A DNA stretch of 42,128 bases, taken from the IMG/VR virus record IMGVR_UViG_2744054914_000003, one strand, 5' to 3'. Of the stretch, positions 3,532 to 17,070 are shown piece by piece. A model generated the notes under the pieces. It was not told where the DNA came from and made no database searches. It saw nothing but the letters and a program-made list of their open reading frames with translations. Position numbers and translations under genes: made by a program. Origin of the DNA: a virus. Its lineage: Duplodnaviria > Heunggongvirae > Uroviricota > Caudoviricetes. Position 1 is the stretch's first letter. Every line of letters starts with the position of its first letter.

Positions 3532-4410
3532 ATGACCTCAGCTTATACAGATGTCCAGCAAGAAGAAAATATTACTGATAAATTAGTTGTTAAATATGAT
3601 GGTCCCGCACTAGCAGATCATAAAATAGATTTGGATGTTTTAACTGAGTCATTGAATGGACTAAACAACTTGCTTAAAGAAGTTAATTTGGTTGTCAATG
3701 GCACTAGTGAGTGTATTAATGTTGAGGTTGAGCCTTTTAAGGAAGGCTCATTTGAGTATTTGATTGATGTTATTCAAAATCCACTTGACCATTTGAATAT
3801 ATTAAGCATTATTGGGCTTGGAGGTACAACTGCACTCGCAGCAGGAAATACTCTCATTGACTTAATTCGTCAGATCAATGGTAGGCAAATAAAACGGTTG
3901 ACTTTAACAGCGGAAGGAGACTGTAAAATAGTTATGGATGATGGTGAGGAAATTATAGCCCCGTCATATTTCCGGCCTTTACTTGCCTCACCAAGCATAC
4001 GCAAATCCTTATCGAAGTTAATTCATAATCCTTTGCAAAAGGAAGGATACGAATCGCTTAAAATTTCAACTCAACAGGGGGTTGAGCTGATTAAGGTGCA
4101 CGAAGATAATATTGAACCGTTCAGATATAGGCGCGTTCCTGTAGTGCAGTCCTTGTCTGAAAGGGTGATTGAAGAGGCTCTAATCACATTTTTGACTATT
4201 CATAAGGATAAAAACACAGGCTGGCGAGTCAACTATGGCGATGACACAATCAGCGTGTCTATAGAAGATACTGAGTTCTTACAACGTGTTAGTACGGGAA
4301 GAGAACCTGGTGTTTTTAGTGATGCTTACTGCGTTGATTTGCTCGTCCGTGAGAACTTGAATTCGCTGGACAAAACGTACATAGTTGTTAAAGTACACGG
4401 TATCTTATAG
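3532..4410 (+). CDS. Hypothetical soluble protein, gene 1 of AT-rich three-gene moron
   Basis: 292-aa ORF, ATG preceded by AAGGAACA; about 30-35% GC against >50% in flanking phage genes; no hydrophobic helix or catalytic motif recognised by eye. Confidence 0.6.
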   Translation: MTSAYTDVQQEENITDKLVVKYDGPALADHKIDLDVLTESLNGLNNLLKEVNLVVNGTSECINVEVEPFKEGSFEYLIDVIQNPLDHLNILSIIGLGGTTALAAGNTLIDLIRQINGRQIKRLTLTAEGDCKIVMDDGEEIIAPSYFRPLLASPSIRKSLSKLIHNPLQKEGYESLKISTQQGVELIKVHEDNIEPFRYRRVPVVQSLSERVIEEALITFLTIHKDKNTGWRVNYGDDTISVSIEDTEFLQRVSTGREPGVFSDAYCVDLLVRENLNSLDKTYIVVKVHGIL

Positions 4411-4433: not shown

Positions 4434-4682
4434 ATGATTGCTTTTGCTTTTTGGCTGGCTTTTTTTAGCCTGCTTCCCGTACTATATTGGGTTCTTAAGA
4501 TGGGGTTTGACCGGTTACGCTTTGCGCTTATGCCTAAACATCATCTTGTTCTTGAATGTGTTGACTCAGAAGGAGTTGTCCGTCGCGATGTCGTTGATGT
4601 CTCTTCTGATGATGAATTTTACAAAATTGCAATGAATGCCATTCGTGCTGGAAGATCAGTCAAAGGAGGGACGTTTGAGTAG
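4434..4682 (+). CDS. Small membrane protein, gene 2 of AT-rich moron
   Basis: 82-aa ORF, ATG preceded by GGGGAGGGGG; N-terminal hydrophobic helix (IAFAFWLAFFSLLPVLYWVL) then charged soluble tail; stop TAG at 4680-4682 overlaps next gene's start. Confidence 0.5.
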   Translation: MIAFAFWLAFFSLLPVLYWVLKMGFDRLRFALMPKHHLVLECVDSEGVVRRDVVDVSSDDEFYKIAMNAIRAGRSVKGGTFE

Positions 4683-5205
4683 CGCTTCTAAACCTGATAG
4701 CTACGAAAAAGTCCCTCTGATTTCTAATGTTGCTGCTGGTGGCATCACTGGTTTTTTAACATTACTGGTGTCCTCGTGGGACGGTCGTTTTCCGTATATT
4801 GGTTCTGATTTAAATACAATAAAGCCATTTCTTTTATTAATGCTTCCCAGTTGCGCTATGTTTCTGGCGCATTGGATAAAGTCGATTGGGTTTAAATGGT
4901 CCTTAGGTAGCGTTAATCGACAGTTATTAAGCATTAATAAGAAGAAAGAAAAAGAACTTCGCCGTGATATTGAAAAGTACAAAAATGTTATTTCTAATGA
5001 AAAGATAGAGGACTTTAAAAGTCAACTTGAACAAGTATTACAAGATCGTCATGATATTATTTCTAATAATTACGCACAGAAACTAAGAGAAAGAAATTAT
5101 ACGCAAGAAAAATATCATGAGCATAAACAAACCGCTGCAAATGATAATATTGAGCTGCAAAGCATACTGGAGAATCAGAAGTTCAATCAAAAAGGCATTG
5201 ACTAA
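4675..5205 (+). CDS. Membrane protein with two hydrophobic helices and K/E-rich coiled-coil C-terminus, gene 3 of AT-rich moron
   Basis: In-frame TTG at 4675 lies 5 nt after strong AAGGAGGG and overlaps gene 2 stop by 8 nt; alternative ATG at 4636 lacks a ribosome-binding site. Hydrophobic segments (VAAGGITGFLTLLVSSW; FLLLMLPSCAMFLAHWI). Confidence 0.5.
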   Translation: MSSASKPDSYEKVPLISNVAAGGITGFLTLLVSSWDGRFPYIGSDLNTIKPFLLLMLPSCAMFLAHWIKSIGFKWSLGSVNRQLLSINKKKEKELRRDIEKYKNVISNEKIEDFKSQLEQVLQDRHDIISNNYAQKLRERNYTQEKYHEHKQTAANDNIELQSILENQKFNQKGID

Positions 5206-5209
5206 ATTT

Positions 5210-5479
5210 TTATAATATCCTCTCTAGGTTCTTGCTATCCAGCACCACTACGGTAAAGCCCAGTTTTCGCAGACGTTCATGTTCGCGCAATTGGTCAGGC
5301 CGTGGTGGCTTGCCGGGAGATTTACATTCAACGAAAACGATACGACCACCTGGTAGCAGGACAATGCGATCCGGTACCGAGCGGTGACCGGGAGATACAA
5401 ACTTAAAGGCCACTCCGCCAGCTTTTTTCACTTCAGCGACGAGGTGCTTTTCGATAAGGCTTTCACGTTCATAGGCCAT
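5210..5479 (-). CDS. VRR-NUC domain nuclease
   Basis: PD-(D/E)xK-like motif (DRIVLL ... VFVECKSPG); longest ORF extends to 5506 but start at MAYERESL is more plausible. Confidence 0.7.
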   Translation of the reverse strand: MAYERESLIEKHLVAEVKKAGGVAFKFVSPGHRSVPDRIVLLPGGRIVFVECKSPGKPPRPDQLREHERLRKLGFTVVVLDSKNLERIL

Positions 5480-5768
5480 CTGAATCCCACTCTTCAAAAA
5501 GCACATTCAATTCCAGTTTCTCTGCCAACGCGTTTTCTGCACGTGCGCCAGCAGAGTACTCCCACTCTTTGAGCATATAAATCGTATCGGCACAGCGAAG
5601 CATTGCGAGGCAGATGTCCATATACTGAGCCTGTGTCAAACCATTGGGTAAAGTTGCGGGGTTAAGCACAACATATCCCTTGTCCGTTAGCCTCTTTGCT
5701 GCGGAATGAAAAGCCGGGCGGTTAAATTGCTCGTAACCGCTCATCGGCCCGGCAACGTAAACGATCAT
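5469..5768 (-). CDS. DUF4406-like (nucleoside 2-deoxyribosyltransferase-like) phage protein
   Basis: 99-aa ORF with N-terminal VYVAGPMSG motif recalled for this family; ATG at 5768. Confidence 0.55.
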   Translation of the reverse strand: MIVYVAGPMSGYEQFNRPAFHSAAKRLTDKGYVVLNPATLPNGLTQAQYMDICLAMLRCADTIYMLKEWEYSAGARAENALAEKLELNVLFEEWDSDGL

Positions 5769-5980
5769 TCTTCGACCGCCTTACGCTTTTCACGCATATT
5801 CTGCATCAGGCAAAAATCAGATCTGCGTTCACTCCATTCCTGATTCAGTTCGTGATGTGATTCGCGGTTGGCTTTTGCCCAGACCTTCGCTGCCCGGTCA
5901 TATTCGCCGGATTGTTCAAGTCGCAAAGCCTCCCTTGCAGCCCTGTAATAAAGTGGATTGTCCCGGTATTTAAATGACAT
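5765..5980 (-). CDS. Small hypothetical phage protein
   Basis: 71-aa ORF tightly packed between the polymerase and DUF4406-like genes, with overlapping stop/start. Confidence 0.4.
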   Translation of the reverse strand: MSFKYRDNPLYYRAAREALRLEQSGEYDRAAKVWAKANRESHHELNQEWSERRSDFCLMQNMREKRKAVEE

Positions 5981-5985
5981 AGGAG

Positions 5986-8049
5986 TTAATCCTTACGGTA
6001 GTGGTACGCCTCAAAACCGCCAGCGTTCAGTGGGATATCTGGCGCCCATTCGGGGTTAGTGGAGAGAAGCGCGGAAAGCGCTTTATCGTTGAAATCTTCT
6101 GTGTCAGGTGATTCGGTGATCACCTCGTCGTGTACCGTCAGCACAATGCTGTAACCGGCATCTTCGATAAGCGGCATGTTTCCGGCCAGAACGTCGCGGG
6201 CGGCCGCCTGGGTGACGTTCTCCACCAGCTTTCCGCCGTAGGTTTTGAGTCGTTGCCATTTACGCGAATAAGAGTTAACACCCATGTAGGTGATATTCCC
6301 TTGTTCGATAACCGGAGACGGGTAGCATACAGCGCGTCCGGATGGTAGCTGTATGCGCAGCCACGCGCCATCGCGGCGGATTTTAAGATAACCGCAATAC
6401 AATGTTTTTTGCGGTGTGGCGATTGCTGTGCGGACGGTGCACTCCAGTTCGTACCAGAAATCACAGGTCGCGGGATGCGCCCGGCGCCAGAGACGTTTAA
6501 GTGAGTCGCAGGCGATAAATACCCGTTCAGAAAGCCCGTAGGTCGATTTACGTTTAACCGATTCGTCGTACCAGCTTTTCGCCTCGCGGATAACATCGCG
6601 GGGAATGTTTGGCAGTGCGGCGTTCGCCAGCCCGTCGAGATCGAGACCGTAAACCAGAGCAAAAGTGATGAAAGCCGATACACCTCCTCCATAACCCAGA
6701 CCGAGTTCCATGACTTTACCGATCTGACGCATGTGTTTATCAACATCATCTGGTGCAATATCGAAAGCTTTTGCATACGCCAGTTTATATAAGTCCGGAC
6801 CCGTTCCGGCGTCGTACTCTCTGAATGCATTCAGTTTCCATTCTTCTCCCGCCAGCCATGCCAGCATACGGCCTTCAATGTTCGACAAGTCACTTACCAC
6901 CAGCTTTTTGCCTGTTGGCGCGATAATGCAGCCACGTAACGCTGAACTGGTTAGTTCCATGATATTGTCAAACAGCAGGTCTGCACATCCGGCTTTCAGT
7001 GCTTCGATGCCTTCGTCTATTTGTTCCTGTTTTAGTGAAGGGCGGGGAAGGTTCTGGGGCTGGAATAGCCGTCCGGCCCAACGACCGGTACGTGACGCCC
7101 CGCAGAACTGTAGCGTACCGCGTAAGCGCCCGTCGTGGCTTACGCCTTTCATCAGTGCCTTGTATTTACTGGTGCTGGTAGTACTGGCCTGCAGGCGGAT
7201 AGCCAGCAGTTCTTTCACGGCAGATGGTAAATCGGGGTCGGCAATACGACGTTCCAGAGTACTGCGTTGCATGTCTGGTAGCTCCACACCGTAGGATTCA
7301 ACAATGTGCTTAATCAACGCGTCTCGTTGTGTGGCTGCCTGCACTTCGCCATCAGTCATTTCCTGTGTACGCTTTGCCAGGCGCTTTTGTTCCTGGTCTA
7401 CCGCGTCGATCGCAGCGCGTGCGAGTTCCACGTCCATGCAGACGCCCCGGTCATTGATCTGCTGATCACGATGCCAGAGCGCCAGTTCTGTCCCCTGATA
7501 ATTCCACTTCGGCAGACGTTTATAGACTTCGCGCATTGCCTCGATATCCAGTCCGGCGTAAGCAACAAAGCGCCGCCATTCTTCCGGGTGGGTTTTGCTG
7601 GTGGCCCGGCGCAGTTTGCTGTTTTTCGGGCGTGGCTTACAGAACAGCTGGATCAGCGCTTTACCTTCTTTGTCCTTCGCTTTGTCTTGCGGGACGCCTA
7701 GTACTTCGCAGAGTTCCCCCAGAGACCCCGGGAGACCGTGCGCCAGCGCCTGCACCATCGTGTCGCGCCAACGTTCGACTGGCGGTGCCAGTCGCGGCAT
7801 TGCATAACGCAGGACGGTGCGGTCGAAGTGAGAGTTATGAAAATAAAGCAGGGTTTCAGGGGCTGCGATTGCTTCGTATAAGCCGTGTGGAATACCACCA
7901 CCGGCAGTGATATCCCATACGTTTACTGGCCCGTCGTTGATAGCCCATGCGAACAGCATCACTTCAACGCCTTCGGCATACGCATGGGTACCGTTCGTAA
8001 TAGGGATTTCGCAATAGGTTTCCAGGTCGCCCCATAGTATATTGGACAT
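5986..8049 (-). CDS. Family-A DNA polymerase (3'-5' exonuclease plus polymerase domains)
   Basis: 687-aa ORF; exonuclease motif DLETY near N-terminus, polymerase motif A-like ([13 protein letters not shown]) and motif C (VHDEV). Confidence 0.85.
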
Positions 8050-8095
8050 GTGTTTACCTTGGTTTTTATTCTATTAACTGATTAAAAGATTAATT

Positions 8096-8725
8096 ATGCA
8101 TATGATCCAATACTTGATTGACCATACAGAGCATCTGGAGAAAATAGCTGGATATATTTTTTCATGTTTGATTGTTATGGGAGTCTGGATAAGAAAGATC
8201 ATTTTTAATTATAAGTATAAAGAGCCTAAATATGTCAAGAAGTTAATTTTATATTTAGTTAAGTATGAACGTTATCTGGATAAGGAGGATAAGAGTGCCA
8301 TAGAAAAAAGAATAAATGATAAAATTATTCGTGATGCGCTGAAATTGCAATCTTCTTATAACCGAAGTGATGTTATTTACATTTGCAATAGATTAGAAAA
8401 AAGACAGTATATAAATCAGGTGATTAAGCTTCAGAATTATATAGAGAAAGATAACGGAGTGTTTTTCATCAATGTTAATTTTTCAGGTTTTTTATTTATT
8501 ATTAGTCGTCTGTTTTCCTTTCTGTGTTTTGTGCTGTTTATCCTTTTTTCTATTATCTGCATTATTTCCATAGGGCAAAATGAAGGCCTTTTAAATTATC
8601 TTGTGTATATGGTTATGACAATAGTTTTAGAGACTGTTGGTTTTTGGATGTATGATACTTTCCCGTCTAAGAAGAAGATCTGTGAACTAAATAAAGAATT
8701 GAGGAAGATTAAGATTCCTGAGTGA
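8096..8725 (+). CDS. Hypothetical membrane protein (AT-rich moron, opposite strand to the replication operon)
   Basis: 209-aa ORF in strongly AT-rich DNA between two minus-strand replication genes; hydrophobic segments at N-terminus and C-terminal third (FLFIISRLFSFLCFVLFILFSIICIISIG; LVYMVMTIVLETVGFWMY). Confidence 0.5.
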   Translation: MHMIQYLIDHTEHLEKIAGYIFSCLIVMGVWIRKIIFNYKYKEPKYVKKLILYLVKYERYLDKEDKSAIEKRINDKIIRDALKLQSSYNRSDVIYICNRLEKRQYINQVIKLQNYIEKDNGVFFINVNFSGFLFIISRLFSFLCFVLFILFSIICIISIGQNEGLLNYLVYMVMTIVLETVGFWMYDTFPSKKKICELNKELRKIKIPE

Positions 8726-8743
8726 TTATACGCCTAATCAGCA

Positions 8744-8762
8744 GCCCGGTATTTAACCGGGC
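8744..8762. terminator. Hairpin between convergent genes (possible bidirectional terminator, no clear U-tract)
   Basis: GCCCGGT-ATTTA-ACCGGGC, 7-bp stem, between the 8725 stop (+) and the 8778 stop (-). Confidence 0.3.
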
Positions 8763-8777
8763 GTCTATGAAGTAGGG

Positions 8778-9326
8778 TTAAATCAGTGCTTCAGCATCAG
8801 CACCTTCGCTGATATCGTCGAAATCGTCAGCGCTTGCCACTCCGCCGCCAGCGAATGCATCGCCGTCTCGCAGGAACTGGACTCCGCCGAGTGAGGCATT
8901 AATGCGTTTACCGAAATTATTGTCCTGTGCCCAGATATCGATAACGGCGTTTACATAGCACCCTGCATAGGGACGTCCATCAGCCTGAATAAGTGGCGAA
9001 CGATCGCGATCAAGAACAGCTGGGCGCGCTTTGTTAGCAGCATTCAGGAAGAAATTGCCGGGGAAGCCTTCATACTCTGCTTTTTCATCACCATCATGCA
9101 GGCACAGATTGAGTTTTTTCTCCAGTTGGTTATAAATGGGCTCCCACTTCTCTCCCCATTTTTCCTTCGCTACCTGCTTCATAGCTTTACGGATTTCTTC
9201 CAGTTGTGGGTGTTTGGGTGACATTAAAAATACTGCGGAGAAACGTGGATCGCCTTCGCCGTTTACAGTTTTAGCTTCAAACAGAGACGGGAAGGCCAGA
9301 CGAACATTGTTCAGCTTCAGTTTCAT
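8778..9326 (-). CDS. DUF2815-like phage protein (SSB-like, as recalled)
   Basis: 182-aa ORF with acidic C-terminal tail (DDFDDISEGADAEALI); sits between DUF2800-like and polymerase genes as in the recalled module. Confidence 0.6.
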   Translation of the reverse strand: MKLKLNNVRLAFPSLFEAKTVNGEGDPRFSAVFLMSPKHPQLEEIRKAMKQVAKEKWGEKWEPIYNQLEKKLNLCLHDGDEKAEYEGFPGNFFLNAANKARPAVLDRDRSPLIQADGRPYAGCYVNAVIDIWAQDNNFGKRINASLGGVQFLRDGDAFAGGGVASADDFDDISEGADAEALI

Positions 9327-9341
9327 GGGTATTTCCTTAAA

Positions 9342-10643
9342 TCAGATGAGGTCTGCGGTTAGCGTATCGTCGGATACGTCGTCGAAATCATTTACAGGGT
9401 TGATATTGAGTGCGGGGCGTGGGTCTGACTCGGGAACGATGGTGGGTTTACCATCAGCTCGTGTTATCAGTGCCTCGACTTTTGACCAACGGCGCGGACT
9501 GGCCTTTTTGATAAGTTTTTCGGCTTTTGTGGGGCTAATAAGTTTAAAGTCGAATACTTCTTCAGTTTTGTACCTGAACTGGTCCTTCAGAAGTGCGCGA
9601 GCTGCCTCTTCATCACTCCAGGCCCGGTTACCTTGTTTTCCTGTTACCAGTTTAAACCCCGGTACCGGATGTCCGGCATTGAGTTCATTGTGAACCCGGT
9701 CTCGTACTGCCTTTAGCCAGGATTCAATAAAGTCGGCCTGGCTATAGATCTCCGCAAGCTGCTCAATGGTTAACAGAGGTACACGTGCGCTGGCATTGGA
9801 GATTATTTCGCTGACAGGCTTTGTCAGATCTTCAAAATCGCTGGCCGCTGTTTGTAAATGCTGCATTTTCTGGGCAGTGCAAATAGCTTTTGCTTTACAG
9901 AAGCGGCACTGTTTTTCTCCAGGTATGAAGTTTTCCAGCGGTAGTGTCTCAATGCCTTCGCATTCAGCAATATTGAGAACAAGGATCGCACTGGTTGCGG
10001 CCTCCAGTGCCCGTTCACCGAAAGACTGAAGTTCCTGTACGGTTAACGACCATTCTGAAACGTGGTTGAGCCTTGGCTGGTGAATAAATAATCTTACAGT
10101 CTCAAAGTCATACAGCATGCTGAATTGTTCGAGCGCACCCAGAGCATACAGTTGTAGTTGCTCATTTTGTTCTGCATCAATGCGGACGCCTTTGCCATAT
10201 TTCAGGTCGTGGATTTGTAATTCGCTACCAGCAATGATTATGCCGTCGGCAGTTCCGAAAGATTCTTCCACACCCGTTATATGTGAGAAATCAACACGTT
10301 GTTCAACCAATAGTTCATTATTCTGTGCAAGAGTCCAGACCGTATCAACATACCGGCCAACGGCTTCGACCATTTCATCATCCACCTGTGGGCCAGATGT
10401 ATCATCAGGATTTTCGCGAAGGGGGTATGAGCCGAGAAACATAGAAACATTGCATCCGGCGTAGTGTTCCGGGTAGCTTTGCCTGTTTCGTAGAACTTTT
10501 TCAGCAAGCGCGTGCGCTGCAGTGCCCTCGATTGCAAAAGTTGTTTCTTTATCCGGTTGTGTGGCCTCCAGCGCCAGACTTCCTGGGCAGCGCATCCATC
10601 GATGCGCTGATGATGGAGAAAGTTGTGCATGAACGTCTGGCAT
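9342..10643 (-). CDS. DUF2800-like PD-(D/E)xK nuclease (Cas4-like)
   Basis: 433-aa ORF with N-terminal [15 protein letters not shown] motif and C-terminal cysteine cluster ([10 protein letters not shown]). Confidence 0.65.
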
Positions 10644-10645
10644 GA

Positions 10646-11548
10646 TTAACCCTCCAGTGCTTTTTCAGCCAGGGTGATTACTTCAGCGAGATTTTCATCC
10701 GTTACTTCACCAAGTTTCCTGGCTCCCTGTTTTTCCAGAATTGCAATAGCTTCTGCCCGGTAACCCCCTTTTGCTAACTGGAGGATCAACCCTTCAGCTT
10801 GTTTGCGTAGTGCCGCGAAATCAATTGTATGGTCATCTTTGGCGTCATGATTCTGGCTGGAATTTGCTGCGTCTCTGCGTGCAAATTCTTCTTGCAGCTG
10901 AAGGTACTCAACACGGTTGATCTCGATATGGCCTTTTTTCAGCATCTCGTTCAACTTGCGTAAGGTGTGGAGTTCACTGGCTGCTGTGCCGGATACATTT
11001 TTGACGTAAAACGGCCCCGTGCGTTCTCCATCTTTGTTACTGGCCTTTTTCGGCTTAACTTCATCACGCCCATCCGCAGGTGCATCAAGTAGCTGCTCGG
11101 CAAAAACACGTCGCTCGCCGATGGTTGGCAGGTCGTCCCAGAACTTAAGGATGTTACGGGACAGGTCCAGGAGAGCAGGTTTAAGCAGCGCCCTGGCTCG
11201 TTTGACGCCCTGCAATGCGCTGTCGAGAGCATCAATCTGAACTACTCGTTTATCGCCTTCAGCATCACGGTAGGCAACAGCACGTTGCAGCATGTCTTCT
11301 GTGATAGGGGTGGCTACCGGGTAGAAACCAGCCAGTGCGATAACGTCGCTGAACTCCAGATCATCCAGTGTCATTGCCGCTGACATATTTTCAGTTTCAG
11401 TTGCTGTATCCCGACATTCCTGCACTCGTGAAATCGTGTCAGGATGCATAACAATGCCTGATGCCATTGTGCGGATAAGACGTTCAAGCAGCGCATTATG
11501 TTGTGCCAGAAGTTGATTATTAAGTTCGAGACTGGTTTCTAAACTCAT
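10646..11548 (-). CDS. Hypothetical early phage protein
   Basis: 300-aa ORF, same strand and contiguous with the replication module; no motif recognised. Confidence 0.45.
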
Positions 11549-11727
11549 ACTGTGGTCCTCGCTACAAGGAGAATGAAAGTGATGATCAGACCGAGCGCAG
11601 TGGCAACGGCCAGACCGGTCATCAAATCGAAGTTTTTACGGCGATAACGGAGAACATCGCGCCCCGTCAGTCGATGGGGGTATTCAGGTTTCATCGGTTG
11701 TATTCCTTTTTTCATATCGGGGAGCAC
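11545..11727 (-). CDS. Small membrane protein (first gene of leftward early operon)
   Basis: 60-aa ORF with C-terminal hydrophobic helix (LAVATALGLIITFILLVA). Confidence 0.35.
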   Translation of the reverse strand: MLPDMKKGIQPMKPEYPHRLTGRDVLRYRRKNFDLMTGLAVATALGLIITFILLVARTTV

Positions 11728-11756
11728 GCTGTTGCGAGTGCGCTTTCAGACATAAA

Positions 11757-11790
11757 AAAGCCCGTCACTTGAGGCGGGCAAAGGCTACAC
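11757..11790 (-). terminator. Putative rho-independent terminator (minus strand)
   Basis: On the minus strand: GCCCG...CGGGC stem followed by TTTTTTAT. Confidence 0.4.
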
Positions 11791-11850
11791 ACAGCAATTA
11801 CTTGGATGTCAGCGAATGCCTGCTTTTAACCACGTCAGACGAGATGGCTC

Positions 11851-11901
11851 TCTCTGTACCCCTACAGCGAGAATTCGGCTAATATCTCTTTACCCCTATA
11901 G
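11851..11901. promoter_or_regulatory. Two 17-bp direct repeats (TCTCTKTACCCCTAYAG), putative operator or promoter element
   Basis: Copies at 11851-11867 and 11885-11901, two mismatches, immediately upstream of the 11919 start codon. Confidence 0.45.
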
Positions 11902-11918
11902 TTTTAGAGAGAATTAAG

Positions 11919-12443
11919 ATGTCTGAAGAAAAAGGACTTGTACGGCGTATAACTGAGGCGGCCACTAGTGCTGGTGGTGCTTTGAAAGGTGCTGTTGATT
12001 TAGCAAAAGAAGTTAATGCGTTGCAGGTGGATTACAATGTTAAAAGTAAAACTATCGATCTACTTGATAAACTAATTGATGCGCGTACTGGACAATTCGC
12101 ACTAACGGAGCTTTTGAACGAAGCTAAACAGCGCATTGTTGAACTCGAATCCCTTCTGGAAAAGAAACAGGATTGGGATAGTGAGAAAATGAACTATGAA
12201 ATGTACCACCCGATTACCAATACGGTGGTCTATGTACTGAAGCCTACTGACGATCCTGAGTTCAAGCCTCATTATCTTTGTACTACATGCTATGAGTCGG
12301 GTATGAAGTCTATACTTCAATACCATACTTCTAATGCCGCTTATAAAATTCTCAAGTGTCATAAATGCTCCGCTGAATATAAATTTCCCCGAAATATAGA
12401 AGTCAGTGGCAAAACTCCTGCACCGTTACAACCTGCCAGATGA
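11919..12443 (+). CDS. Hypothetical coiled-coil protein with C-terminal CxxC...CxxC zinc ribbon (immunity-region moron)
   Basis: 174-aa ORF, ATG at 11919; motif CTTCYESG...CHKCSAEY; about 40% GC; opposite strand to flanking early genes and cI. Confidence 0.55.
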   Translation: MSEEKGLVRRITEAATSAGGALKGAVDLAKEVNALQVDYNVKSKTIDLLDKLIDARTGQFALTELLNEAKQRIVELESLLEKKQDWDSEKMNYEMYHPITNTVVYVLKPTDDPEFKPHYLCTTCYESGMKSILQYHTSNAAYKILKCHKCSAEYKFPRNIEVSGKTPAPLQPAR

Positions 12444-12537
12444 TTAGCAGTTCTCTTTGGTGGTGGTGTAGTGGTAGATGCTGAACTTCGGATTGACTCA
12501 ATGGACTGATCTTCACCCCACCCCAAAAGGAACTAAG

Positions 12538-12558
12538 CGCCCCATCGTCGGGGCGTTT
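12538..12558 (+). terminator. Weak putative terminator downstream of the 11919-12443 gene
   Basis: CGCCCC-ATCGTC-GGGGCG hairpin followed by a short TTT run. Confidence 0.35.
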
Positions 12559-12809
12559 CAACTTGCGTGACTTATCAGTTTGTCGCGGTGTTGTCCTCTA
12601 CGCTTACCGTACGCATACGGACTCGGCGCTTACCTCGATCCCATCGGGTGCTATTTCGTTTTGCCAGGAGTACTGCGGCTTACCTGTCACGCGGTTCAGT
12701 TTGTTAAAGAGCCAGTATTAAAAAACGCATTAATTATGCGATATCGTATTTATATGCGTTATGGGATTTTGTGTCAATACGAAAATGAATTATTTTGCAA
12801 ATAAGAAAA

Positions 12810-12836
12810 CCGCCCTTGTGGAGAGCGGTTTGATCA
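12810..12836 (-). terminator. Putative rho-independent terminator of the repressor gene
   Basis: On the minus strand: AACCGC...GCGGTT stem followed by a U-rich run, directly after the cI stop at 12862. Confidence 0.45.
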
Positions 12837-12861
12837 GAAGTAAGTTATCAGACTGTAAAGG

Positions 12862-13536
12862 TTAGTACATACGTAGCGCGGATTTGGCGATCCCCGCCAC
12901 GTAATGGATTTTTTCAATGTTTTCGCGTGGTACTCTGACTGGTGGATGATCTTCATTTACAGACATTAGATGGAACAGGCCATCGCGTTCGAACAAGAAG
13001 GTTTTAACCATGACCTCACCTTCCCGGGTAACCACAAGTACTTCATCACCAGGAGTGTAGTCGTGGTTGGGTTCGACGATTACGAACTCCCCCTCTTTGA
13101 TTCTAGGCATCATTGAATCACCAACACATTTCAGGGCGTATGCATCTTCATCCTTTGTCGGCCAGTATATGAAACCATCACTGCTACCTACTGAATATTG
13201 GGTGTCGCTCCAAAGTCCTCCAACGCCTAGCTGAGTGTTTCCCAAAACAGGTACTTTATTAAACCTAAGAGAAATATACGTTTTTATACCTGTCGCGTCC
13301 TCTTTCTCCAGTTCTTGAAGGCTCCTTTCTGCCAAGTCTATTGGTGACACGTGGAAGTAGTCGGCGATCTGCTTTAACGTTGCGTATTTCGGATCTTTCA
13401 CCTCTCCTGATACCAGCCTGTGTAGCGTTGGTTGGTTCAGCTGTAACCGACGTGCCAGCTCAGTTATCGAGCTTATCTTGGCTTTGTCCATCAGGTACTT
13501 GATGTTTTGAGAAAGGATATCGGTAGTATCAATCAT
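12862..13536 (-). CDS. cI: CI-like phage repressor (HTH N-terminus, S24 LexA-like peptidase C-terminus)
   Basis: 224-aa ORF; HTH region (SITELARRLQLNQPTLHRLVSG); S24-type domain with Ser (GDSM) and Lys (VMVKTF) regions; divergent from a cro-like gene. Confidence 0.85.
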   Translation of the reverse strand: MIDTTDILSQNIKYLMDKAKISSITELARRLQLNQPTLHRLVSGEVKDPKYATLKQIADYFHVSPIDLAERSLQELEKEDATGIKTYISLRFNKVPVLGNTQLGVGGLWSDTQYSVGSSDGFIYWPTKDEDAYALKCVGDSMMPRIKEGEFVIVEPNHDYTPGDEVLVVTREGEVMVKTFLFERDGLFHLMSVNEDHPPVRVPRENIEKIHYVAGIAKSALRMY

Positions 13537-13677
13537 TTGGATTCATCCATGTTGTATACAGGGACGGTGATTATGCGTTATCGGATATTTTAATCTAGGA
13601 TGACATAGAATTGCTGTATTGCTGAGTAATCCGTTTTCGTATAAATTTGCGCTATAGACGAAAGTGGAGACTTAAAT
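13537..13677. promoter_or_regulatory. Divergent promoter/operator region between repressor and cro (PRM/PR-like)
   Basis: 141-bp AT-rich intergenic region between divergent HTH regulator genes, with short palindromes (TGTATACA; TTTCGT...ACGAAA). Confidence 0.5.
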
Positions 13678-13878
13678 ATGTCCGGACTAACACCACAAGA
13701 GATGGTCAAAAGCTTGATTGATTCAGGGTATACCCAAAACCAAATTGCCGAAATTGCAGGCGTGAAGCAGTCTTCTATTAGTCGGCTTCTTACCGGGGTT
13801 CATTCTGACCCTCGCTTTTCTACAGTACGTGCGATAGAAAAACTTTTTCAGGAAGTGACAGCTAGACAAAAGGTGTAA
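13678..13878 (+). CDS. cro: Cro-like HTH regulator
   Basis: 66-aa ORF with HTH (YTQNQIAEIAGVKQSSISRLL), first gene of rightward early operon. Confidence 0.7.
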   Translation: MSGLTPQEMVKSLIDSGYTQNQIAEIAGVKQSSISRLLTGVHSDPRFSTVRAIEKLFQEVTARQKV

Positions 13879-13881
13879 CCC

Positions 13882-16068
13882 ATGTCCGATAGCAAACCAT
13901 GGGGAGCTACGCCTGATGAGTGGTTTCATTTCGACCTGGTATTGGGGCGGACTGCTCATCTTCTCCCAGTTGTATGTAACCCCAGTGCGACCATATCCCC
14001 TGATAGTAAATTGAAAGCGTTGGGTAAGACGCCGAGTCGCTATAACCGGGACCGCCAGGTCACAGGTATTGCTCAATGGACCGGGCATGTTGTTACTGAG
14101 CATGATTTTGCCCGCTGGTCGAATGAACCGGATTATGGCATCTGCGTGCGTACAGGCCATGGCTGGCTGGCGCTGGACTGCGATAGCGAAGATGAAGACA
14201 TTCAGGCAGATATTCGCAAAACACTTGTGCAACTTCTGGGTGAGTCGCCGCCGCGACGCTGGCGAGCAAACAGTAATAAGTGTCTGTATCTGCTGGCCGT
14301 TGATGGTGATTTCCGTAAGCGTATCCATCGCCTGGCGGGGGATATGGGCATTATCGAGTTGCTGGCGAACGGGCAGCAGTTCGTTGCCTGTGGTACGCAC
14401 AGCAGCGGCGCGCGTATTGAATGGGACGGTGGTTTGCCGGATGAACCTCCGGCTATTACAGGTGAGCAGCTTGAAACGCTGTGGCAGCGCCTGGCTGAAC
14501 AACTCCCTGTGTCGGTAACCACCGAAGCGGGCAACACGAAGATGCGCGACCGTTCAGCATTCACGCCCGGCGCGACGGATGATACAGCTGAATATCTTGA
14601 TGCCAATGGCTGGACGCTGCTGGATGGCGCAAACGGTGAACGATATATCCGCTGTCCGTTTGAAGACGGCCACAGTAGCGGAGGCGATCCAACAAGCACA
14701 GTTTATTTTCCTGCGGGAACCGCAGGCTTTGAGCAGGGGCATTTTAAATGCCTGCATGCCAGTTGCGCGCATCGTGATGACGGAGATTTCCTGAATGCCA
14801 TCGGGATCCGCAACGACGATTTCGAAGATCTGACCAGCATCGAAGTGGCGGAACCTTTACCGCTGCCTGCTTTCGAGCGTGATAAATGGGGGCGTATCGA
14901 GGCAACCATCAGCAATGCAGCCAAAGCAGTAGTACGCTCTGATTTTGTGGACATCGATATTCGCTTTGACCAGTTCCGCGACGAAATCATGTTTGCCCCG
15001 GCAGGATCCGGACAATGGCGGGCATTCACCGATGCGGATTATGCGCGCCTGCGCATCACGATGGAAAAGCGGGGATTTAAACCTGTTGGCCGTGAACTTA
15101 TTCGCGATGTGGTGTTACTTGCAGCCGATGAACAACCATTCGATTCAGCGATCACCTGGCTGAACGGACTGGAGTGGGATGGCGTGCCGCGCATCGAATG
15201 TTTCTACCATACGCACTTCGGTACCGCCGACACGCCTTATACCCGTGCGGTGTCTATGTACATGTGGACCGCGTTGGCGGGGCGAGTACTGGAGCCAGGC
15301 ATCAAAGCGGATATGGTGCCGATCCTCGTTGGTCCGCAGGGCTGCGGTAAGTCTTCCGGAGTGGAGGCACTGAGCCCTGATCCTGCGTTTTTTACTGAAA
15401 TCTCTTTTGCCGAAAAAGACGATGATCTCGCTCGAAAAATGCGTGGTCGGCTGGTGGCAGAGATTGGTGAACTGCGCGGACTTAATACCAAAGAGCTGGA
15501 GTCAATCAAAGCGTTTGTGACGCGTACTCACGAAAACTGGATCCCGAAATACCGGGAGTTCGCCACCCAGTTTCCTCGTCGCCTGGTGTTCGTTGGTACC
15601 ACTAATGAGGACGAATTCCTTGCGGACAAGACTGGTAACCGTCGCTGGCTCCCCGTGGAAGTGTCGAAAGTCGACGTGAAAGCGATAAAAAGAGATCTCC
15701 TTTTACTTTGGGCTGAGGCTCGTGAGGTGTTTCAGCGTCTGGGGGGTATCCAGTTCCGTGAGGCTGAACAACTGGCAGCGAGTGTCCATGAACAGTACAC
15801 CATCAAGGATGCTTGGCTTGAAACGGTAGAGAAATGGCTCGACACGCCCGACCTGATGACTAATGAACTTCCGCGAAATTGCGAATTTTTACGCGCAAGT
15901 GATGTTTTGCGTGATGCGATTGGGCTAAATCCTGACCGCATCGGAAAACGCGAAGAAATGCGAATTAGTAATGTTTTGCAAAATTGCGGGTATAAGCGTG
16001 CCCAAAGGCGAATTGGGGGGAAAAAATGCAAGGTTTGGGAACCGCTGGAACCACGCGGAACCACCTAG
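13882..16068 (+). CDS. Replication initiator: Prim-Pol-type primase fused to P-loop NTPase (VirE/D5-like helicase)
   Basis: 728-aa ORF; Walker A (LVGPQGCGKSS) in C-terminal half; N-terminal half with acidic Prim-Pol-like motifs; iterons overlap its 3' end. Confidence 0.75.
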   Translation: MSDSKPWGATPDEWFHFDLVLGRTAHLLPVVCNPSATISPDSKLKALGKTPSRYNRDRQVTGIAQWTGHVVTEHDFARWSNEPDYGICVRTGHGWLALDCDSEDEDIQADIRKTLVQLLGESPPRRWRANSNKCLYLLAVDGDFRKRIHRLAGDMGIIELLANGQQFVACGTHSSGARIEWDGGLPDEPPAITGEQLETLWQRLAEQLPVSVTTEAGNTKMRDRSAFTPGATDDTAEYLDANGWTLLDGANGERYIRCPFEDGHSSGGDPTSTVYFPAGTAGFEQGHFKCLHASCAHRDDGDFLNAIGIRNDDFEDLTSIEVAEPLPLPAFERDKWGRIEATISNAAKAVVRSDFVDIDIRFDQFRDEIMFAPAGSGQWRAFTDADYARLRITMEKRGFKPVGRELIRDVVLLAADEQPFDSAITWLNGLEWDGVPRIECFYHTHFGTADTPYTRAVSMYMWTALAGRVLEPGIKADMVPILVGPQGCGKSSGVEALSPDPAFFTEISFAEKDDDLARKMRGRLVAEIGELRGLNTKELESIKAFVTRTHENWIPKYREFATQFPRRLVFVGTTNEDEFLADKTGNRRWLPVEVSKVDVKAIKRDLLLLWAEAREVFQRLGGIQFREAEQLAASVHEQYTIKDAWLETVEKWLDTPDLMTNELPRNCEFLRASDVLRDAIGLNPDRIGKREEMRISNVLQNCGYKRAQRRIGGKKCKVWEPLEPRGTT

Positions 16069-16227
16069 AAGAGAAGGTGGTTCCACCTTGCAGACCTTGT
16101 GGCAAGCGGGGCGGAACTACTGGAACCACTGGAACCGCCTTTCTACTAGAAACCCCATATATATATATAAGTCGATTGAGGGAAAGGTTAGGAAAAGGTG
16201 GTTCCAGGTGGGGGCAGGTGGTTCCAC
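16038..16227. repeat. Iteron-type replication origin: about 9 copies of GGAACC(A/G)C in both orientations around an (AT)n tract
   Basis: GGAACCAC/GTGGTTCC copies starting at 16047, 16057, 16077, 16123, 16198 and 16218, with variants at 16038, 16114 and 16132; ATATATATATATA at 16157-16170; overlaps and follows the 3' end of the initiator gene. Confidence 0.6.
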
Positions 16228-16356
16228 TCCGAATTAGCAACTTTTTGCATGTTGATACATGCAATATGCGGATCGGAACTGCGTTATCCACACCCACGGA
16301 TAAACAGACGTAGTTCTCAGAAAAATTTTTCGTAGCAAAACGTAGAGGTCAGAGCT

Positions 16357-16791
16357 ATGCGTAATATTCAACAGGTTTTAGAGCGCTGGGGTGGATGGGC
16401 TGCCGATAGCAACACCACAGTGAGCTGGGCTCCAATAGCGGCGGGATTTAAAGGGCTGGTAGTCAGCAGCTCGCCTGGCAGGCTGAGTTGCTGTGACGAC
16501 GATGGCCTGATTATCGATGCTTGCGTCTGTCGGCTGCAGCAGGTCCGTAAGCCTGAGGAACTGGACGTCATTATGCTGTACTACGTCTACGGGTTAAGCA
16601 AACGTGAGATAGGGCGGCGGCGTCGCTGTTCTGAAGGATTTATCCGCCAGCAGTTGCAGGTAGCAGAGGGATTCATTGAGGGGTGTCTCTGCATGCTGGG
16701 TGTGAGCCTTCAGATGGATCCTGAGGTCGAAATTCAAAGGGATGAAAAAAGTATTAGTGCGCTACGCAAAAACTGCGCTACGCTGGTATGA
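16357..16791 (+). CDS. Q-like late antiterminator
   Basis: 144-aa ORF; N-terminus (MRNIQQVLERWGGWAA...AGFKGL...CCDDD) resembles Q proteins of lambdoid E. coli prophages as I recall them; immediately upstream of the lysis cassette. Confidence 0.65.
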   Translation: MRNIQQVLERWGGWAADSNTTVSWAPIAAGFKGLVVSSSPGRLSCCDDDGLIIDACVCRLQQVRKPEELDVIMLYYVYGLSKREIGRRRRCSEGFIRQQLQVAEGFIEGCLCMLGVSLQMDPEVEIQRDEKSISALRKNCATLV

Positions 16792-17070
16792 GTTGAATTT
16801 CTGACCTCAACGAAGAGCTCCAAATCATTGGGGCTTTTTTAATGCTCTATTCTCAGTAAAAGTTAATAAAACAGGGTTTTCGTCGCGAAAAAACGCTATG
16901 CAGTTTTTGCCCTTTTTTATGCACCTCTTATTCACTCGAATTTCGTCATTCTGGACCACTTAAGTTGATTAAATAGGCCTTTCATCGCAAATCTATTGCG
17001 AGCGGTGATCGTGTGGTTCCTATAACATACATTATGTTAAATAACTTCCTTTTTTAACAAATTTAACAAG

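What the first reader, a model, noticed from the sequence alone, without database searches (positions are those of the whole stretch)
8050..8777. Single AT-rich membrane-protein gene on the opposite strand between the polymerase and DUF2815-like genes
Seen in sequence: a 209-aa ORF in strongly AT-rich DNA with hydrophobic helices at both ends, flanked by minus-strand replication genes and followed by a GC hairpin (8744-8762). Inference: a stand-alone moron in a position other phages leave empty, possibly a membrane-acting exclusion or abortive-infection protein. Its ribosome-binding site is weak, so expression is uncertain.
Basis: partly seen in the sequence, partly recalled or inferred. Interest (0 to 1): 0.5.

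Follow-up and report, generated by a model that had tools for sequence, protein, structure and literature searches.

The report
Swappable prophage membrane-protein cargo gene
This is a real but uncharacterised gene for a small inner-membrane protein that an E. coli prophage carries as exchangeable cargo between two replication genes; it most likely protects the lysogen from other phages, but that function is inferred, not shown.

Summary
ORF 8096-8725 (+, 209 aa) lies in the most AT-rich DNA of the window (GC 0.295 against 0.494). It sits between the minus-strand DNA polymerase and the Enc34-type ssDNA-binding (DUF2815) genes, and a 7-bp GC hairpin follows at 8744-8762.

It is a genuine gene. 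It belongs to a small Enterobacterales family (PHROG 10579; no Pfam, NCBIfam, PADLOC or PDB relative) with a conserved layout: one N-terminal TM helix, a roughly 95-aa basic cytoplasmic helical domain, a C-terminal TM hairpin and a conserved tail. It is under purifying selection.

The slot is not empty in close relatives. Among E. coli genomes it holds this gene (67), a remote homologue (13) or unrelated cassettes (32 and 27), with breakpoints exactly at the polymerase start and the DUF2815 stop. Only distant phages leave it empty.

Family members are always solitary and AT-rich. They occur in a P2-like S|V slot, a lambdoid defence island, a conjugative-type element, a decayed prophage stub and a fixed Xenorhabdus chromosomal locus.

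Best reading: a lysogen-expressed inner-membrane exclusion or abortive-infection protein, analogous to P22 SieA/SieB but not homologous to them. The function is untested. Interest is moderate.

The parts
8050..8777 (.). Exchangeable cargo cassette (728 bp, GC 0.305) between the polymerase start codon and the DUF2815 stop codon
   Evidence: Homology between cassette variants in 98%-identical prophages stops exactly at 8049/8050 and 8777/8778. Alternative cassettes are seen in L003-L006.
8096..8725 (+). 209-aa ORF: predicted 3-TM inner-membrane protein, member of PHROG 10579
   Evidence: ORF list. phrog_10579 E 2e-109. Full-length homologues of about 210 aa align from residue 1-4. pN/pS is 0.3-0.4 among E. 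coli alleles. AF2 with the family alignment gives pLDDT 76.6 and an all-helical fold plus one beta-hairpin.
8135..8206 (+). TM1 (residues about 14-37); the N-terminal tail before it is acidic, the segment after it strongly basic
   Evidence: Kyte-Doolittle 19-residue window of 1.7. The hydrophobic stretch is conserved in most homologues.
8207..8473 (+). Central, predicted cytoplasmic helical domain (residues about 38-126; 21 K+R against 12 D+E over residues 34-128) carrying the best-conserved motif YLxKYxxYLSxEDKxYIKxxIxxEIM
   Evidence: Alignments A1, A2 and A4. Charge count. AF2 secondary structure.
8474..8659 (+). TM2-TM3 hairpin (residues about 127-188) with a 6-7-residue loop (IGQNEG) and a mostly conserved Glu (E179) in TM3
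   Evidence: KD peak of 3.1. Alignment.
8660..8722 (+). Basic C-terminal tail with the family's only invariant residues (N199, L202; near-invariant I195, E201, K204)
8043..8072 (+). Candidate sigma-70 promoter TGGACA-18-TATTCT. The -35 hexamer overlaps the polymerase start codon, in conserved backbone.
   Evidence: Consensus scan. The number of such sites is not above chance (3 found, 3.9 expected), so this is a lead only.
8057..8060 (-). AAGG ribosome-binding site of the polymerase gene, lying inside the variable cassette
   Evidence: Read from the sequence. Each alternative cassette supplies its own AAGG/GAGG-type site at the same place.
8744..8762 (.). 7-bp GC-rich hairpin between the convergent stop codons. 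It belongs to the backbone downstream of DUF2815 and is not a canonical terminator.
   Evidence: It is shared with the BRO-N-cassette relative L006, and other cassettes have a different hairpin at the same place.
5986..8049 (-). Family A DNA polymerase (left flank; downstream gene of the minus-strand early operon)
   Evidence: Pfam DNA_pol_A E 1e-13. RefSeq annotation in L001.
8778..9326 (-). Enc34-type ssDNA-binding protein / DUF2815 (right flank)
   Evidence: Pfam PF10991 E 7.6e-44.

Best explanation
The 209-aa ORF is a functional accessory (moron) gene of an E. coli prophage whose early region resembles that of APSE phages.

What it encodes. It encodes a three-pass inner-membrane protein. 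The predicted topology is N-terminus out; TM1; a roughly 95-aa basic helical domain in the cytoplasm; a TM2-TM3 hairpin with a minimal periplasmic loop; and a conserved basic C-terminal helix in the cytoplasm.

Where it sits. The gene occupies a recombinational cargo slot between the ssDNA-binding and polymerase genes. Whole cassettes are swapped there between otherwise near-identical prophages.

When it is probably expressed. It points against the minus-strand early operon. It is therefore most likely transcribed from its own promoter in the repressed prophage, and opposed by antisense transcription during lytic growth.

What it probably does (inferred). It acts alone at the inner membrane to protect the lysogen from incoming phages. 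It could block genome entry, as P22 SieA or T4 Imm do. Alternatively it could sense an infection through its cytoplasmic domain and collapse the membrane, an abortive infection as with SieB or RexB.

Shown: gene reality, family, topology signals, slot behaviour and solitary mobility. Inferred: expression in the lysogen and the anti-phage role.
For: Real gene:
- Full-length homologues at 22-43% identity align from residue 1-4.
- dN/dS is 0.07-0.20 among Xenorhabdus orthologues, 0.11-0.15 in the 199-aa clade, and pN/pS is 0.3-0.4 among E. coli alleles.

Membrane topology:
- Three hydrophobic segments, with charge distribution following the positive-inside rule.
- The AF2 model has pLDDT 76.6.

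Cargo slot:
- Cassette counts in E. coli genomes are 67, 13, 32 and 27, with breakpoints at the polymerase ATG and the DUF2815 stop.
- The 199-aa occupant of the same slot is a remote homologue: hhalign probability 96.6%, E 6e-10, 190 columns. It is also found in that slot in Klebsiella aerogenes.

Solitary and mobile. Family members occur in these other settings:
- the P2 orf30 slot between gpS and gpV in Rahnella;
- immediately upstream of antiterminator Q in a lambdoid prophage, beside dGTPase (E 5e-144), a type II R-M pair and the PADLOC candidate Hp1;
- near TraG and a DpdF/PsyrT-like helicase;
- on the opposite strand between RecT and PAPS reductase;
- as a remnant with polymerase and DUF2815 stubs in an Enterobacter island;
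- fixed upstream of thrS in three Xenorhabdus species.
Every copy is far more AT-rich than its surroundings.

Analogy with known exclusion genes:
- P22 sieB lies on the opposite strand inside the early-left operon with its own promoter.
- P22 SieA is an AT-rich, 164-aa inner-membrane protein with three predicted TM domains. It alone blocks DNA injection (PMC10883804). My hydropathy scan shows an N-terminal TM, a basic centre and C-terminal TMs.
- Unannotated genes in P4 satellite defence hotspots mostly proved protective when tested, 6 of 8 (PMC13586616).
Against: - There is no experimental or expression evidence.
- PADLOC gives no match. There is no Pfam or NCBIfam family.
- There is no homology to SieA, SieB or P2 Orf30.
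- The promoter-like site is not above chance, and the Shine-Dalgarno sequence of this allele is weak.
- DNA with 30% GC is a typical H-NS target and could be silenced.
- Some copies are decaying: a K62* nonsense mutation in O55:H7 DEC5B and a frameshifted EPEC copy.
- Defence neighbours are seen in only two of about nine contexts.
Confidence: 0.5

Rival explanations
1. Orphan immunity protein. The membrane protein protects the lysogen from a membrane-targeting bacteriocin or contact-dependent toxin rather than from phages. Immunity proteins of pore-forming colicins are small inner-membrane proteins with 3-4 TM helices and are typically encoded on the opposite strand to their neighbours.
For: - The layout fits: a small 3-TM inner-membrane protein, AT-rich, solitary and on the opposite strand.
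- The gene is fixed in the chromosome of Xenorhabdus, a genus known (from general knowledge) for bacteriocin warfare.
- One metagenomic homologue lies about 0.7 kb from a Tlde1-domain gene.
Against: - No Pfam colicin-immunity or other immunity family matches at E <= 1.
- No toxin gene is adjacent in any of the contexts with identifiable neighbours.
- Most of the conserved sequence is a roughly 95-aa cytoplasmic domain, which colicin immunity proteins lack (established knowledge, not tested here).
Confidence: 0.12
2. Lysogenic-conversion factor unrelated to competitors. The protein modifies host envelope physiology, for example stress tolerance, transport, signalling or colonisation, and is kept because it benefits the host directly.
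For: - It is retained without any phage context in Xenorhabdus and in a decayed Enterobacter prophage stub.
- It is under purifying selection.
- It is found in many pathogenic E. coli lineages, including ETEC H10407 and O103:H2.
Against: - Rapid cassette swapping among 98%-identical prophages is more typical of conflict genes. So is co-location with defence genes and residence in the P2 S|V accessory slot. A tail-gene defence hotspot in P2 is described in PMC13586616.
- There is no domain hinting at transport or signalling.
Confidence: 0.15
3. Lytic-cycle or host-takeover function. The membrane protein is used by the phage itself during replication or lysis, for example as a membrane anchor for replication, a lysis regulator or a kil-type toxin.
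For: - It sits inside the replication gene cluster.
- Another family member sits between RecT and PAPS reductase in a phage early region.
- There is a weak, non-significant resemblance to a holin PHROG, E 0.066.
Against: - It is dispensable: near-identical prophages replace it with unrelated genes.
- It is oriented against the early operon.
- It occurs in non-phage contexts.
- The window has its own lambda-type lysis genes elsewhere.
Confidence: 0.08
4. Not a functional gene: a chance ORF in an AT-rich spacer whose real role is at the DNA or RNA level. It might be an H-NS-bound or transcription-attenuating spacer controlling polymerase expression.
For: - The AT content is extreme and the SD sequence weak.
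- Minus-strand transcription must cross the cassette to reach the polymerase gene.
- Each cassette supplies the polymerase RBS.
- Occasional nonsense or frameshift alleles occur.
Against: - The protein sequence is conserved down to 22% identity, with conserved motifs and topology, in unrelated genomic contexts.
- dN/dS is well below 1.
- The ORF is kept intact in the five E. coli alleles translated here.
Confidence: 0.03

Closest known systems
P22 SieA (superinfection exclusion protein A)
   Same: - It is a single, solitary, AT-rich prophage gene: GC 0.337 against 0.471 for P22, compared with 0.295 against 0.494 here.
- It is a small inner-membrane protein with three predicted TM domains (PMC10883804). 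My hydropathy scan shows an N-terminal TM, a K/R-rich central segment and C-terminal TMs.
- It acts alone from the prophage (PMC10883804).
   Different: - There is no detectable sequence relationship (hhalign probability 0.2%).
- The central cytoplasmic domain here is about twice as long and carries the family's main conserved motif.
- SieA sits beside the ejection-protein genes and targets P22-like ejection proteins. This family is found in myovirus, lambdoid and non-phage elements.
- No exclusion phenotype has been tested here.
P22 / lambda SieB (abortive exclusion) and lambda RexB
   Same: - The gene lies on the opposite strand inside the repressed early operon. In P22 it has its own annotated promoter (P22 annotation).
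- The size is about 190 aa and it has N-terminal TM segments.
- It is the membrane-acting arm of prophage defence.
   Different: - No homology: hhalign probability 0.19% to SieB, and no Pfam SieB or RexB hit at E <= 1.
- The TM arrangement differs: SieB has its TMs only at the N-terminus.
- RexB needs RexA, whereas this gene has no conserved partner.
P2 orf30 and the P2/P4 accessory (defence) hotspots
   Same: - A family member (P0005, 38% identity) occupies exactly the gpS|gpV slot that holds the non-essential orf30 in P2.
- Cassette swapping between near-identical elements matches the behaviour described for P2/P4 hotspots (PMC13586616).
   Different: - It is not homologous to Orf30 (hhalign probability 0.5%).
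- The slot in this window lies in a replication operon of an unrelated prophage type.
- Equating the S|V slot with the published hotspot 'downstream of GpL' is my inference.
APSE (Hamiltonella defensa phage, Sendosyvirus) early region
   Same: - The gene order is the same: Q, VapE primase, cro, S24 repressor, DUF2800, DUF2815, [slot], DNA polymerase, VRR-NUC.
- The DUF2815|polymerase slot holds an opposite-strand membrane-protein gene. A second such gene lies beside VRR-NUC, as in this window at 4636-5205.
   Different: - The APSE slot proteins are 120-aa tail-anchored coiled-coil proteins, unrelated in sequence (hhalign probability 0.04%).
- APSE also has a tRNA-Lys in the slot.

Membership tests
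PHROG 10579 (phage protein family of unknown function) | Significant match to the family profile over its whole length | tested here: met
   E 2e-109; profile positions 1-182 of 182 match residues 28-209. The profile starts at M28, but homologues align from residue 1-4, so the family really includes TM1.
P22 SieA family | Sequence homology to SieA | tested here: not met
   hhalign of family alignment A2 against P22 SieA: probability 0.2%, 17 columns.
P22 SieA family | Small inner-membrane protein with three predicted TM helices | tested here: met
   Hydropathy and charge analysis predict three TM segments here, and an N-terminal TM plus C-terminal TMs in SieA. Inner-membrane location has been shown only for SieA (PMC10883804).
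P22 SieA family | Sufficient on its own to block DNA injection by superinfecting phage | not testable with these tools
   Needs plating, potassium-efflux and DNA-entry assays.
SieB (Pfam PF14163) / Esc | Sequence homology to SieB | tested here: not met
   No Pfam hit at E <= 1; hhalign probability 0.19%.
SieB (Pfam PF14163) / Esc | Encoded antisense within the repressed early operon and expressed from its own promoter in the lysogen | tested here: inconclusive
   The orientation is met. The only promoter-like site (8043-8072) is not above chance, and there are no expression data.
Known anti-phage defence proteins (PADLOC-DB v2.0.0) | Match to any defence-protein HMM | tested here: not met
   0 families at E <= 1. 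The library dates from 2023, so later systems are not covered.
Pore-forming colicin immunity proteins | Match to a Pfam immunity family, and an adjacent toxin gene | tested here: not met
   No Pfam hit. No toxin gene is adjacent in the contexts with identifiable neighbours.
Holins | Significant match to a holin family, and location in a lysis cassette | tested here: not met
   phrog_2508 holin gives only E 0.066 over 40 residues. The gene lies in the replication cluster, and the lysis genes are elsewhere.
P2 Orf30 | Sequence homology | tested here: not met
   hhalign probability 0.5%. Only the genomic slot is shared, through homologue P0005.
Moron (autonomous accessory gene in a phage genome) | Dispensable, compositionally deviant, present or absent between close relatives, and a separate transcription unit | tested here: met
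   It is replaced by other cassettes in 98%-identical prophages. GC is 0.295 against 0.494. It lies on the opposite strand with a hairpin downstream. Its own promoter is not proven.

The most novel reading that the evidence does not exclude
The 209-aa protein and its 199-aa slot-mate would define a previously unrecognised family of single-gene, inner-membrane anti-phage effectors.
- A cytoplasmic sensor domain would be coupled to a TM hairpin.
- The family would travel as a 'gun for hire' between cargo slots of at least four kinds of mobile element: the APSE-like replication operon, the P2 S|V slot, the lambdoid region upstream of Q, and a conjugative element or island.
- It would have been domesticated in the Xenorhabdus chromosome.

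A further, less likely twist concerns control of polymerase expression. The cassette carries the polymerase RBS and must be transcribed antisense for the polymerase to be made. It could therefore also act as a convergent-transcription or H-NS gate on replication-gene expression.
Probability: 0.35. Interest if true: 0.6.

Novelty: new member of a known kind. Interest (0 to 1): 0.38.

Why it matters
If the inferred role is right, this is an unannotated single-gene defence or exclusion family. It is present in about 1.5% of complete E. coli genomes (80 of 5,426, counting both clades), including ETEC H10407 and O103:H2 STEC. Current defence finders miss it.

The polymerase|SSB junction would then be a defence-swapping hotspot in a prophage type not yet mined for such loci. 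It holds four or more cassettes, including Nmad5 nucleotide-modification genes and a small 2-TM protein.

This matters for predicting phage susceptibility of pathogenic E. coli, for example in phage therapy. It also gives a compact 209-aa test case for how a membrane protein senses or blocks infection. If the role is wrong, it is simply one more conserved hypothetical prophage membrane protein.

Tried and rejected
- Homology searches gave nothing beyond PHROG 10579. I tried Pfam, NCBIfam and PADLOC on the protein, a PDB sequence search with the family profile, and tblastn against phage and plasmid collections. The tblastn found only three near-identical phages and no plasmids.
- The single-sequence AF2 model was poor (pLDDT 56). 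With the 15-sequence alignment it was usable (pLDDT 76.6).
- Direct profile comparisons with P22 SieA, P22 SieB, P2 Orf30 and the APSE slot protein were all negative.
- The search for related loci could not use the alignment because it is too divergent.
- Literature searches for the RefSeq protein accession, the phage name and the DUF2815/DUF2800 prophage module found nothing about this gene.
- I considered and rejected the alternative start at M28, which the PHROG profile uses. Homologues conserve the N-terminal 27 residues, including TM1, and M28 is not conserved.
- I considered and rejected a lipoprotein signal. There is no basic n-region, and C24 is not conserved (alignment).
- I considered the hairpin as this gene's terminator. 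It has no U-tract, and it is shared with a relative carrying another cassette, so it is a backbone feature.
Full report
**1. The observation**

The ORF runs from ATG 8096 to TGA 8725 on the + strand and encodes 209 aa. Its GC content is 0.295 against 0.494 for the window. No other 630-bp stretch of the 42 kb is as AT-rich (minimum 0.284 at 8032; z = -3.9).

It is flanked on the minus strand by two replication genes. One is a family A DNA polymerase (5986-8049). The other is an Enc34-type ssDNA-binding protein / DUF2815 (8778-9326; Pfam E 7.6e-44).

Hydropathy gives one N-terminal hydrophobic segment (about residues 14-37) and two C-terminal ones (about 127-166 and 165-188).

The hairpin GCCCGGT-ATTTA-ACCGGGC is at 8744-8762. 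The surrounding 66 nt fold at -23.4 kcal/mol (z = -3.6). No T-run follows on either strand, and the terminator scan finds nothing.

The Shine-Dalgarno region is weak: only AAAAGA lies upstream.

**2. It is a real gene with a small family**

Pfam, NCBIfam and PADLOC give no significant hit. PHROGs places the protein in phrog_10579, of unknown function (E 2e-109).

The word-indexed search of 5.8 billion proteins found only near-identical E. coli sequences. The exhaustive phmmer search of 1.84 billion representatives found ten proteins. These include full-length relatives of 209-218 aa at 25-43% identity that align from residue 1-4 to the C-terminus.

The alignment shows several conserved features:
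- a hydrophobic N-terminal helix;
- the central motif YLxKYxxYLSxEDKxYIKxxIxxEIM;
- two C-terminal TM helices, with a mostly conserved Glu (E179) in the second;
- a tail FPxxxxIxxINxELAKxK containing the only invariant residues (N199, L202).

The PHROG profile begins at M28. However, M28 is not conserved and the first 27 residues are, so the full 209-aa reading is the right one.

Selection is purifying:

| Comparison | Value |
|---|---|
| Five E. coli alleles | pN/pS 0.3-0.4 |
| Neighbouring DUF2815 | 0 non-synonymous changes among 6 |
| Polymerase | ratio about 0.07, from the counts |
| Xenorhabdus orthologues | dN/dS 0.07-0.20 |
| 199-aa clade | dN/dS 0.11-0.15 |

A few copies are decaying. 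O55:H7 DEC5B has a K62* nonsense mutation, and one EPEC copy is frameshifted.

**3. Predicted protein**

Charges follow the positive-inside rule:
- the N-tail has 0 K+R and 2 D+E;
- the central region (residues 34-128) has 21 K+R and 12 D+E;
- the loop between TM2 and TM3 is only IGQNEG;
- the C-tail has 7 K+R and 3 D+E.

The predicted topology is N-out and C-in, with almost all soluble mass in the cytoplasm.

AlphaFold2 with the 15-sequence family alignment gives pLDDT 76.6 and pTM 0.59. The model has helices throughout plus one short beta-hairpin at residues 116-125.

**4. The slot**

The window is an E. coli prophage. Its integrase lies next to yfhL/shoB in O103:H2 strain 12009. The polymerase-to-DUF2815 region is 98.4% identical in three induced phages, vB_EcoM-606R2, -689R2 and -611R5.

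In 5,426 complete E. coli genomes, 159 carry at least one flank. All 67 that carry this ORF have it at this junction. The junction is a cargo slot:

| Cassette | Content | Genomes |
|---|---|---|
| A | this 209-aa gene (+) | 67 |
| B | 89-aa two-TM protein (+) plus an Nmad5 nucleotide-modification gene (-) | 32 |
| C | 199-aa protein (+) | 13 |
| D | 229-aa soluble protein (+) plus Nmad5 (-) | 27 |
| E | BRO-N protein (-) | not counted |

Homology between variants stops exactly at the polymerase ATG and the DUF2815 stop. Each cassette brings its own AAGG/GAGG ribosome-binding site for the polymerase.

The hairpin and the 16 nt after it are shared with variant E. The other variants have a different hairpin at the same spot. 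The hairpin therefore belongs to the backbone rather than to this gene.

The cassette C protein has the same length class, orientation and TM layout. It is a remote homologue of the 209-aa protein (hhalign probability 96.6%, E 6.4e-10, 190 aligned columns). The same allele occupies the same slot in a Klebsiella aerogenes prophage.

So 80 of the 139 classified E. coli junctions hold a member of this family. Its two clades share only about 17-23% identity while their flanks are about 98% identical. That pattern indicates cassette replacement, not divergence in place.

The early region is syntenic with the Hamiltonella phage APSE-7. There the DUF2815|polymerase slot holds tRNA-Lys and an unrelated opposite-strand tail-anchored membrane protein.

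In the more distant Serratia phage Smarc4, DUF2815 and the polymerase gene are adjacent, 60 bp apart. The claim that other phages leave the position empty is therefore true only for distant phages.

**5. The family elsewhere**

Every homologue is solitary and much more AT-rich than its surroundings: 0.28-0.40 against 0.40-0.57.

| Homologue | Context |
|---|---|
| P0005, 38% identity | Rahnella P2-like prophage, between gpS and gpV: the slot of the non-essential orf30 in P2 |
| P0007, 26% | lambdoid prophage immediately upstream of antiterminator Q; within 7.5 kb of PADLOC Hp1, a type II methylase/HNH pair and a dGTPase (E 5.5e-144) |
| P0004, 43% | 87-kb contig with TraG_N and a DpdF/PsyrT-like helicase |
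| P0008 | + strand between minus-strand RecT and PAPS reductase on a phage-like contig |
| P0010 | Xenorhabdus, among prophage and transposon debris |
| P0011 | beside DUF1367 and an integrase |
| P0027 | Enterobacter, at the tip of a CP4-like island |

The Enterobacter copy still carries stubs of about 50-80 bp of the polymerase 5' end and about 100 bp of the DUF2815 3' end. The cassette therefore outlived its prophage.

In X. cabanillasii, X. innexi and X. budapestensis the gene sits at one chromosomal locus (SLT - cupin - gene - thrS), with no phage genes nearby. The protein therefore needs no conserved partner and is kept by both phages and hosts.

**6. Mechanism**

Shown:
- it is a dispensable, swappable, compositionally foreign gene that functions on its own;
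- it encodes a predicted three-TM inner-membrane protein;
- it is oriented against the early replication operon, which must be transcribed antisense through it to reach the polymerase gene.

Inferred:
- it is expressed from its own promoter in the repressed prophage. The candidate is TGGACA-18-TATTCT at 8043-8072, with the -35 hexamer inside the conserved polymerase start. Such sites are no more frequent here than in shuffled sequence;
- it protects the lysogen from superinfecting phages at the inner membrane.

Two sub-mechanisms fit, and I cannot separate them:
- an entry block like P22 SieA. SieA is a 162/164-aa inner-membrane protein with three predicted TM domains that is necessary and sufficient for the block (PMC10883804);
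- an abortive response, in which the conserved cytoplasmic domain senses infection and the TM hairpin compromises the membrane. P22 sieB likewise lies antisense in the early-left operon with its own promoter.

The family's presence in non-phage elements and beside general defence genes, and the fact that its conserved surface is cytoplasmic, lean slightly towards a sensor-effector (abortive) mode.

As background, 6 of 8 randomly chosen unknown genes in P4 defence hotspots protected against phages when tested. P2 also has a defence hotspot within its tail genes (PMC13586616). Equating that hotspot with the S|V slot is my inference.

**7. Rivals**

- An orphan immunity protein against membrane-targeting bacteriocins has a similar gene layout. 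However, no immunity family matches, no toxin gene is adjacent, and colicin immunity proteins lack a large cytoplasmic domain.
- A host-physiology conversion factor is possible.
- A lytic-cycle function is unlikely. The gene is replaceable, antisense to the early operon, and found outside phages.
- A non-coding spacer role is contradicted by the protein-level conservation.

**8. Comparison with known families**

By function and layout the closest are SieA and SieB/RexB. By locus behaviour the closest are the P2/P4 accessory hotspots and the APSE early region.

Membership of SieA, SieB, Orf30, holin, colicin-immunity and PADLOC families was tested and not met. The gene is a member of PHROG 10579.

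**9. Verdict**

This is a correctly observed and real prophage cargo gene of an uncharacterised membrane-protein family. Nothing about it is exotic, because prophage membrane morons are a known kind.

It is nevertheless a well-defined, testable candidate for a new single-gene exclusion or abortive-infection family. The slot it occupies is a previously undescribed swapping hotspot. Confidence is about 0.9 that it is a functional inner-membrane cargo gene and about 0.5 that it is anti-phage. Interest is 0.38.

Noticed in passing
window 4636-5205 (+): A second AT-rich (GC 0.36) opposite-strand ORF of 189 aa, with an N-proximal TM segment and a long charged C-terminal part. It belongs to phrog_15878 (unknown function, E 2e-117) and has no PADLOC hit. 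It lies in a second variable slot between VRR-NUC and the SNF2/DEAD helicase. In strain 12009 that slot holds a 309-aa hypothetical protein plus a cytosine methyltransferase. In phage 606R2 it holds a TIR-like protein. APSE-7 also has an opposite-strand TM gene beside VRR-NUC.
   Followed up: partly
window 3532-4410 (+) and 11919-12443 (+): Two more + strand ORFs coincide with AT-rich islands inside the minus-strand early region. One is a 292-aa LAPAL-motif family protein (NCBIfam E 4.5e-57). The other is a 174-aa protein with C-terminal CxxC pairs. All four AT-rich islands of the early region are + strand ORFs, suggesting a set of lysogen-expressed cargo genes.
   Followed up: no
L003 1694-2332, L005 2045-2686 (relatives; same slot as window 8050-8777): Alternative cassettes at the polymerase|DUF2815 junction carry an Nmad5-family putative nucleotide-modification gene on the operon strand. 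It is paired with either an 89-aa two-TM protein or a 229-aa soluble protein on the opposite strand. Some relatives may therefore modify their DNA.
   Followed up: partly
window 8050-8062 (- strand) and equivalents in L003-L005: The ribosome-binding site of the DNA polymerase gene lies inside the variable cassette. Each cassette supplies its own, and minus-strand transcription must pass antisense through the cargo gene to reach the polymerase gene. This implies possible coupling between cargo and replication-gene expression.
   Followed up: no
L027 6919-7728 (Enterobacter sp. ECC-019 chromosome): The 199-aa allele survives at the end of a CP4-like island (YfjS/YafY, antirestriction, RadC, CbtA/CbeA). 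It retains short stubs of the polymerase 5' end and the DUF2815 3' end. The cassette has outlasted the prophage.
   Followed up: yes
L007, L030, L031 (Xenorhabdus cabanillasii, innexi, budapestensis): A 212-aa family member is fixed at one chromosomal locus between a cupin gene and thrS in three species. dN/dS is 0.07-0.20 and no mobile-element genes are nearby.
   Followed up: yes
L028 (APSE-7) against window 5200-16800: The early/regulatory region of this E. coli myovirus-type prophage is syntenic with that of the aphid-symbiont phage APSE. The shared order runs Q, VapE primase, cro, S24 repressor, DUF2800, DUF2815, polymerase, VRR-NUC. DUF2815 is 55% identical.
   Followed up: partly
L021 (E. 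coli O55:H7 DEC5B) and P0002 (EPEC C342-62): Inactivated copies of the 209-aa gene: a K62* nonsense codon, and a frameshift after residue about 124. PGAP leaves the DEC5B copy unannotated.
   Followed up: yes
phrog_10579 against window 8096-8176: The PHROG profile, and hence some phage annotations, start the protein at M28 and so cut off the first transmembrane helix. Homologues show that the N-terminal 27 residues are conserved.
   Followed up: yes
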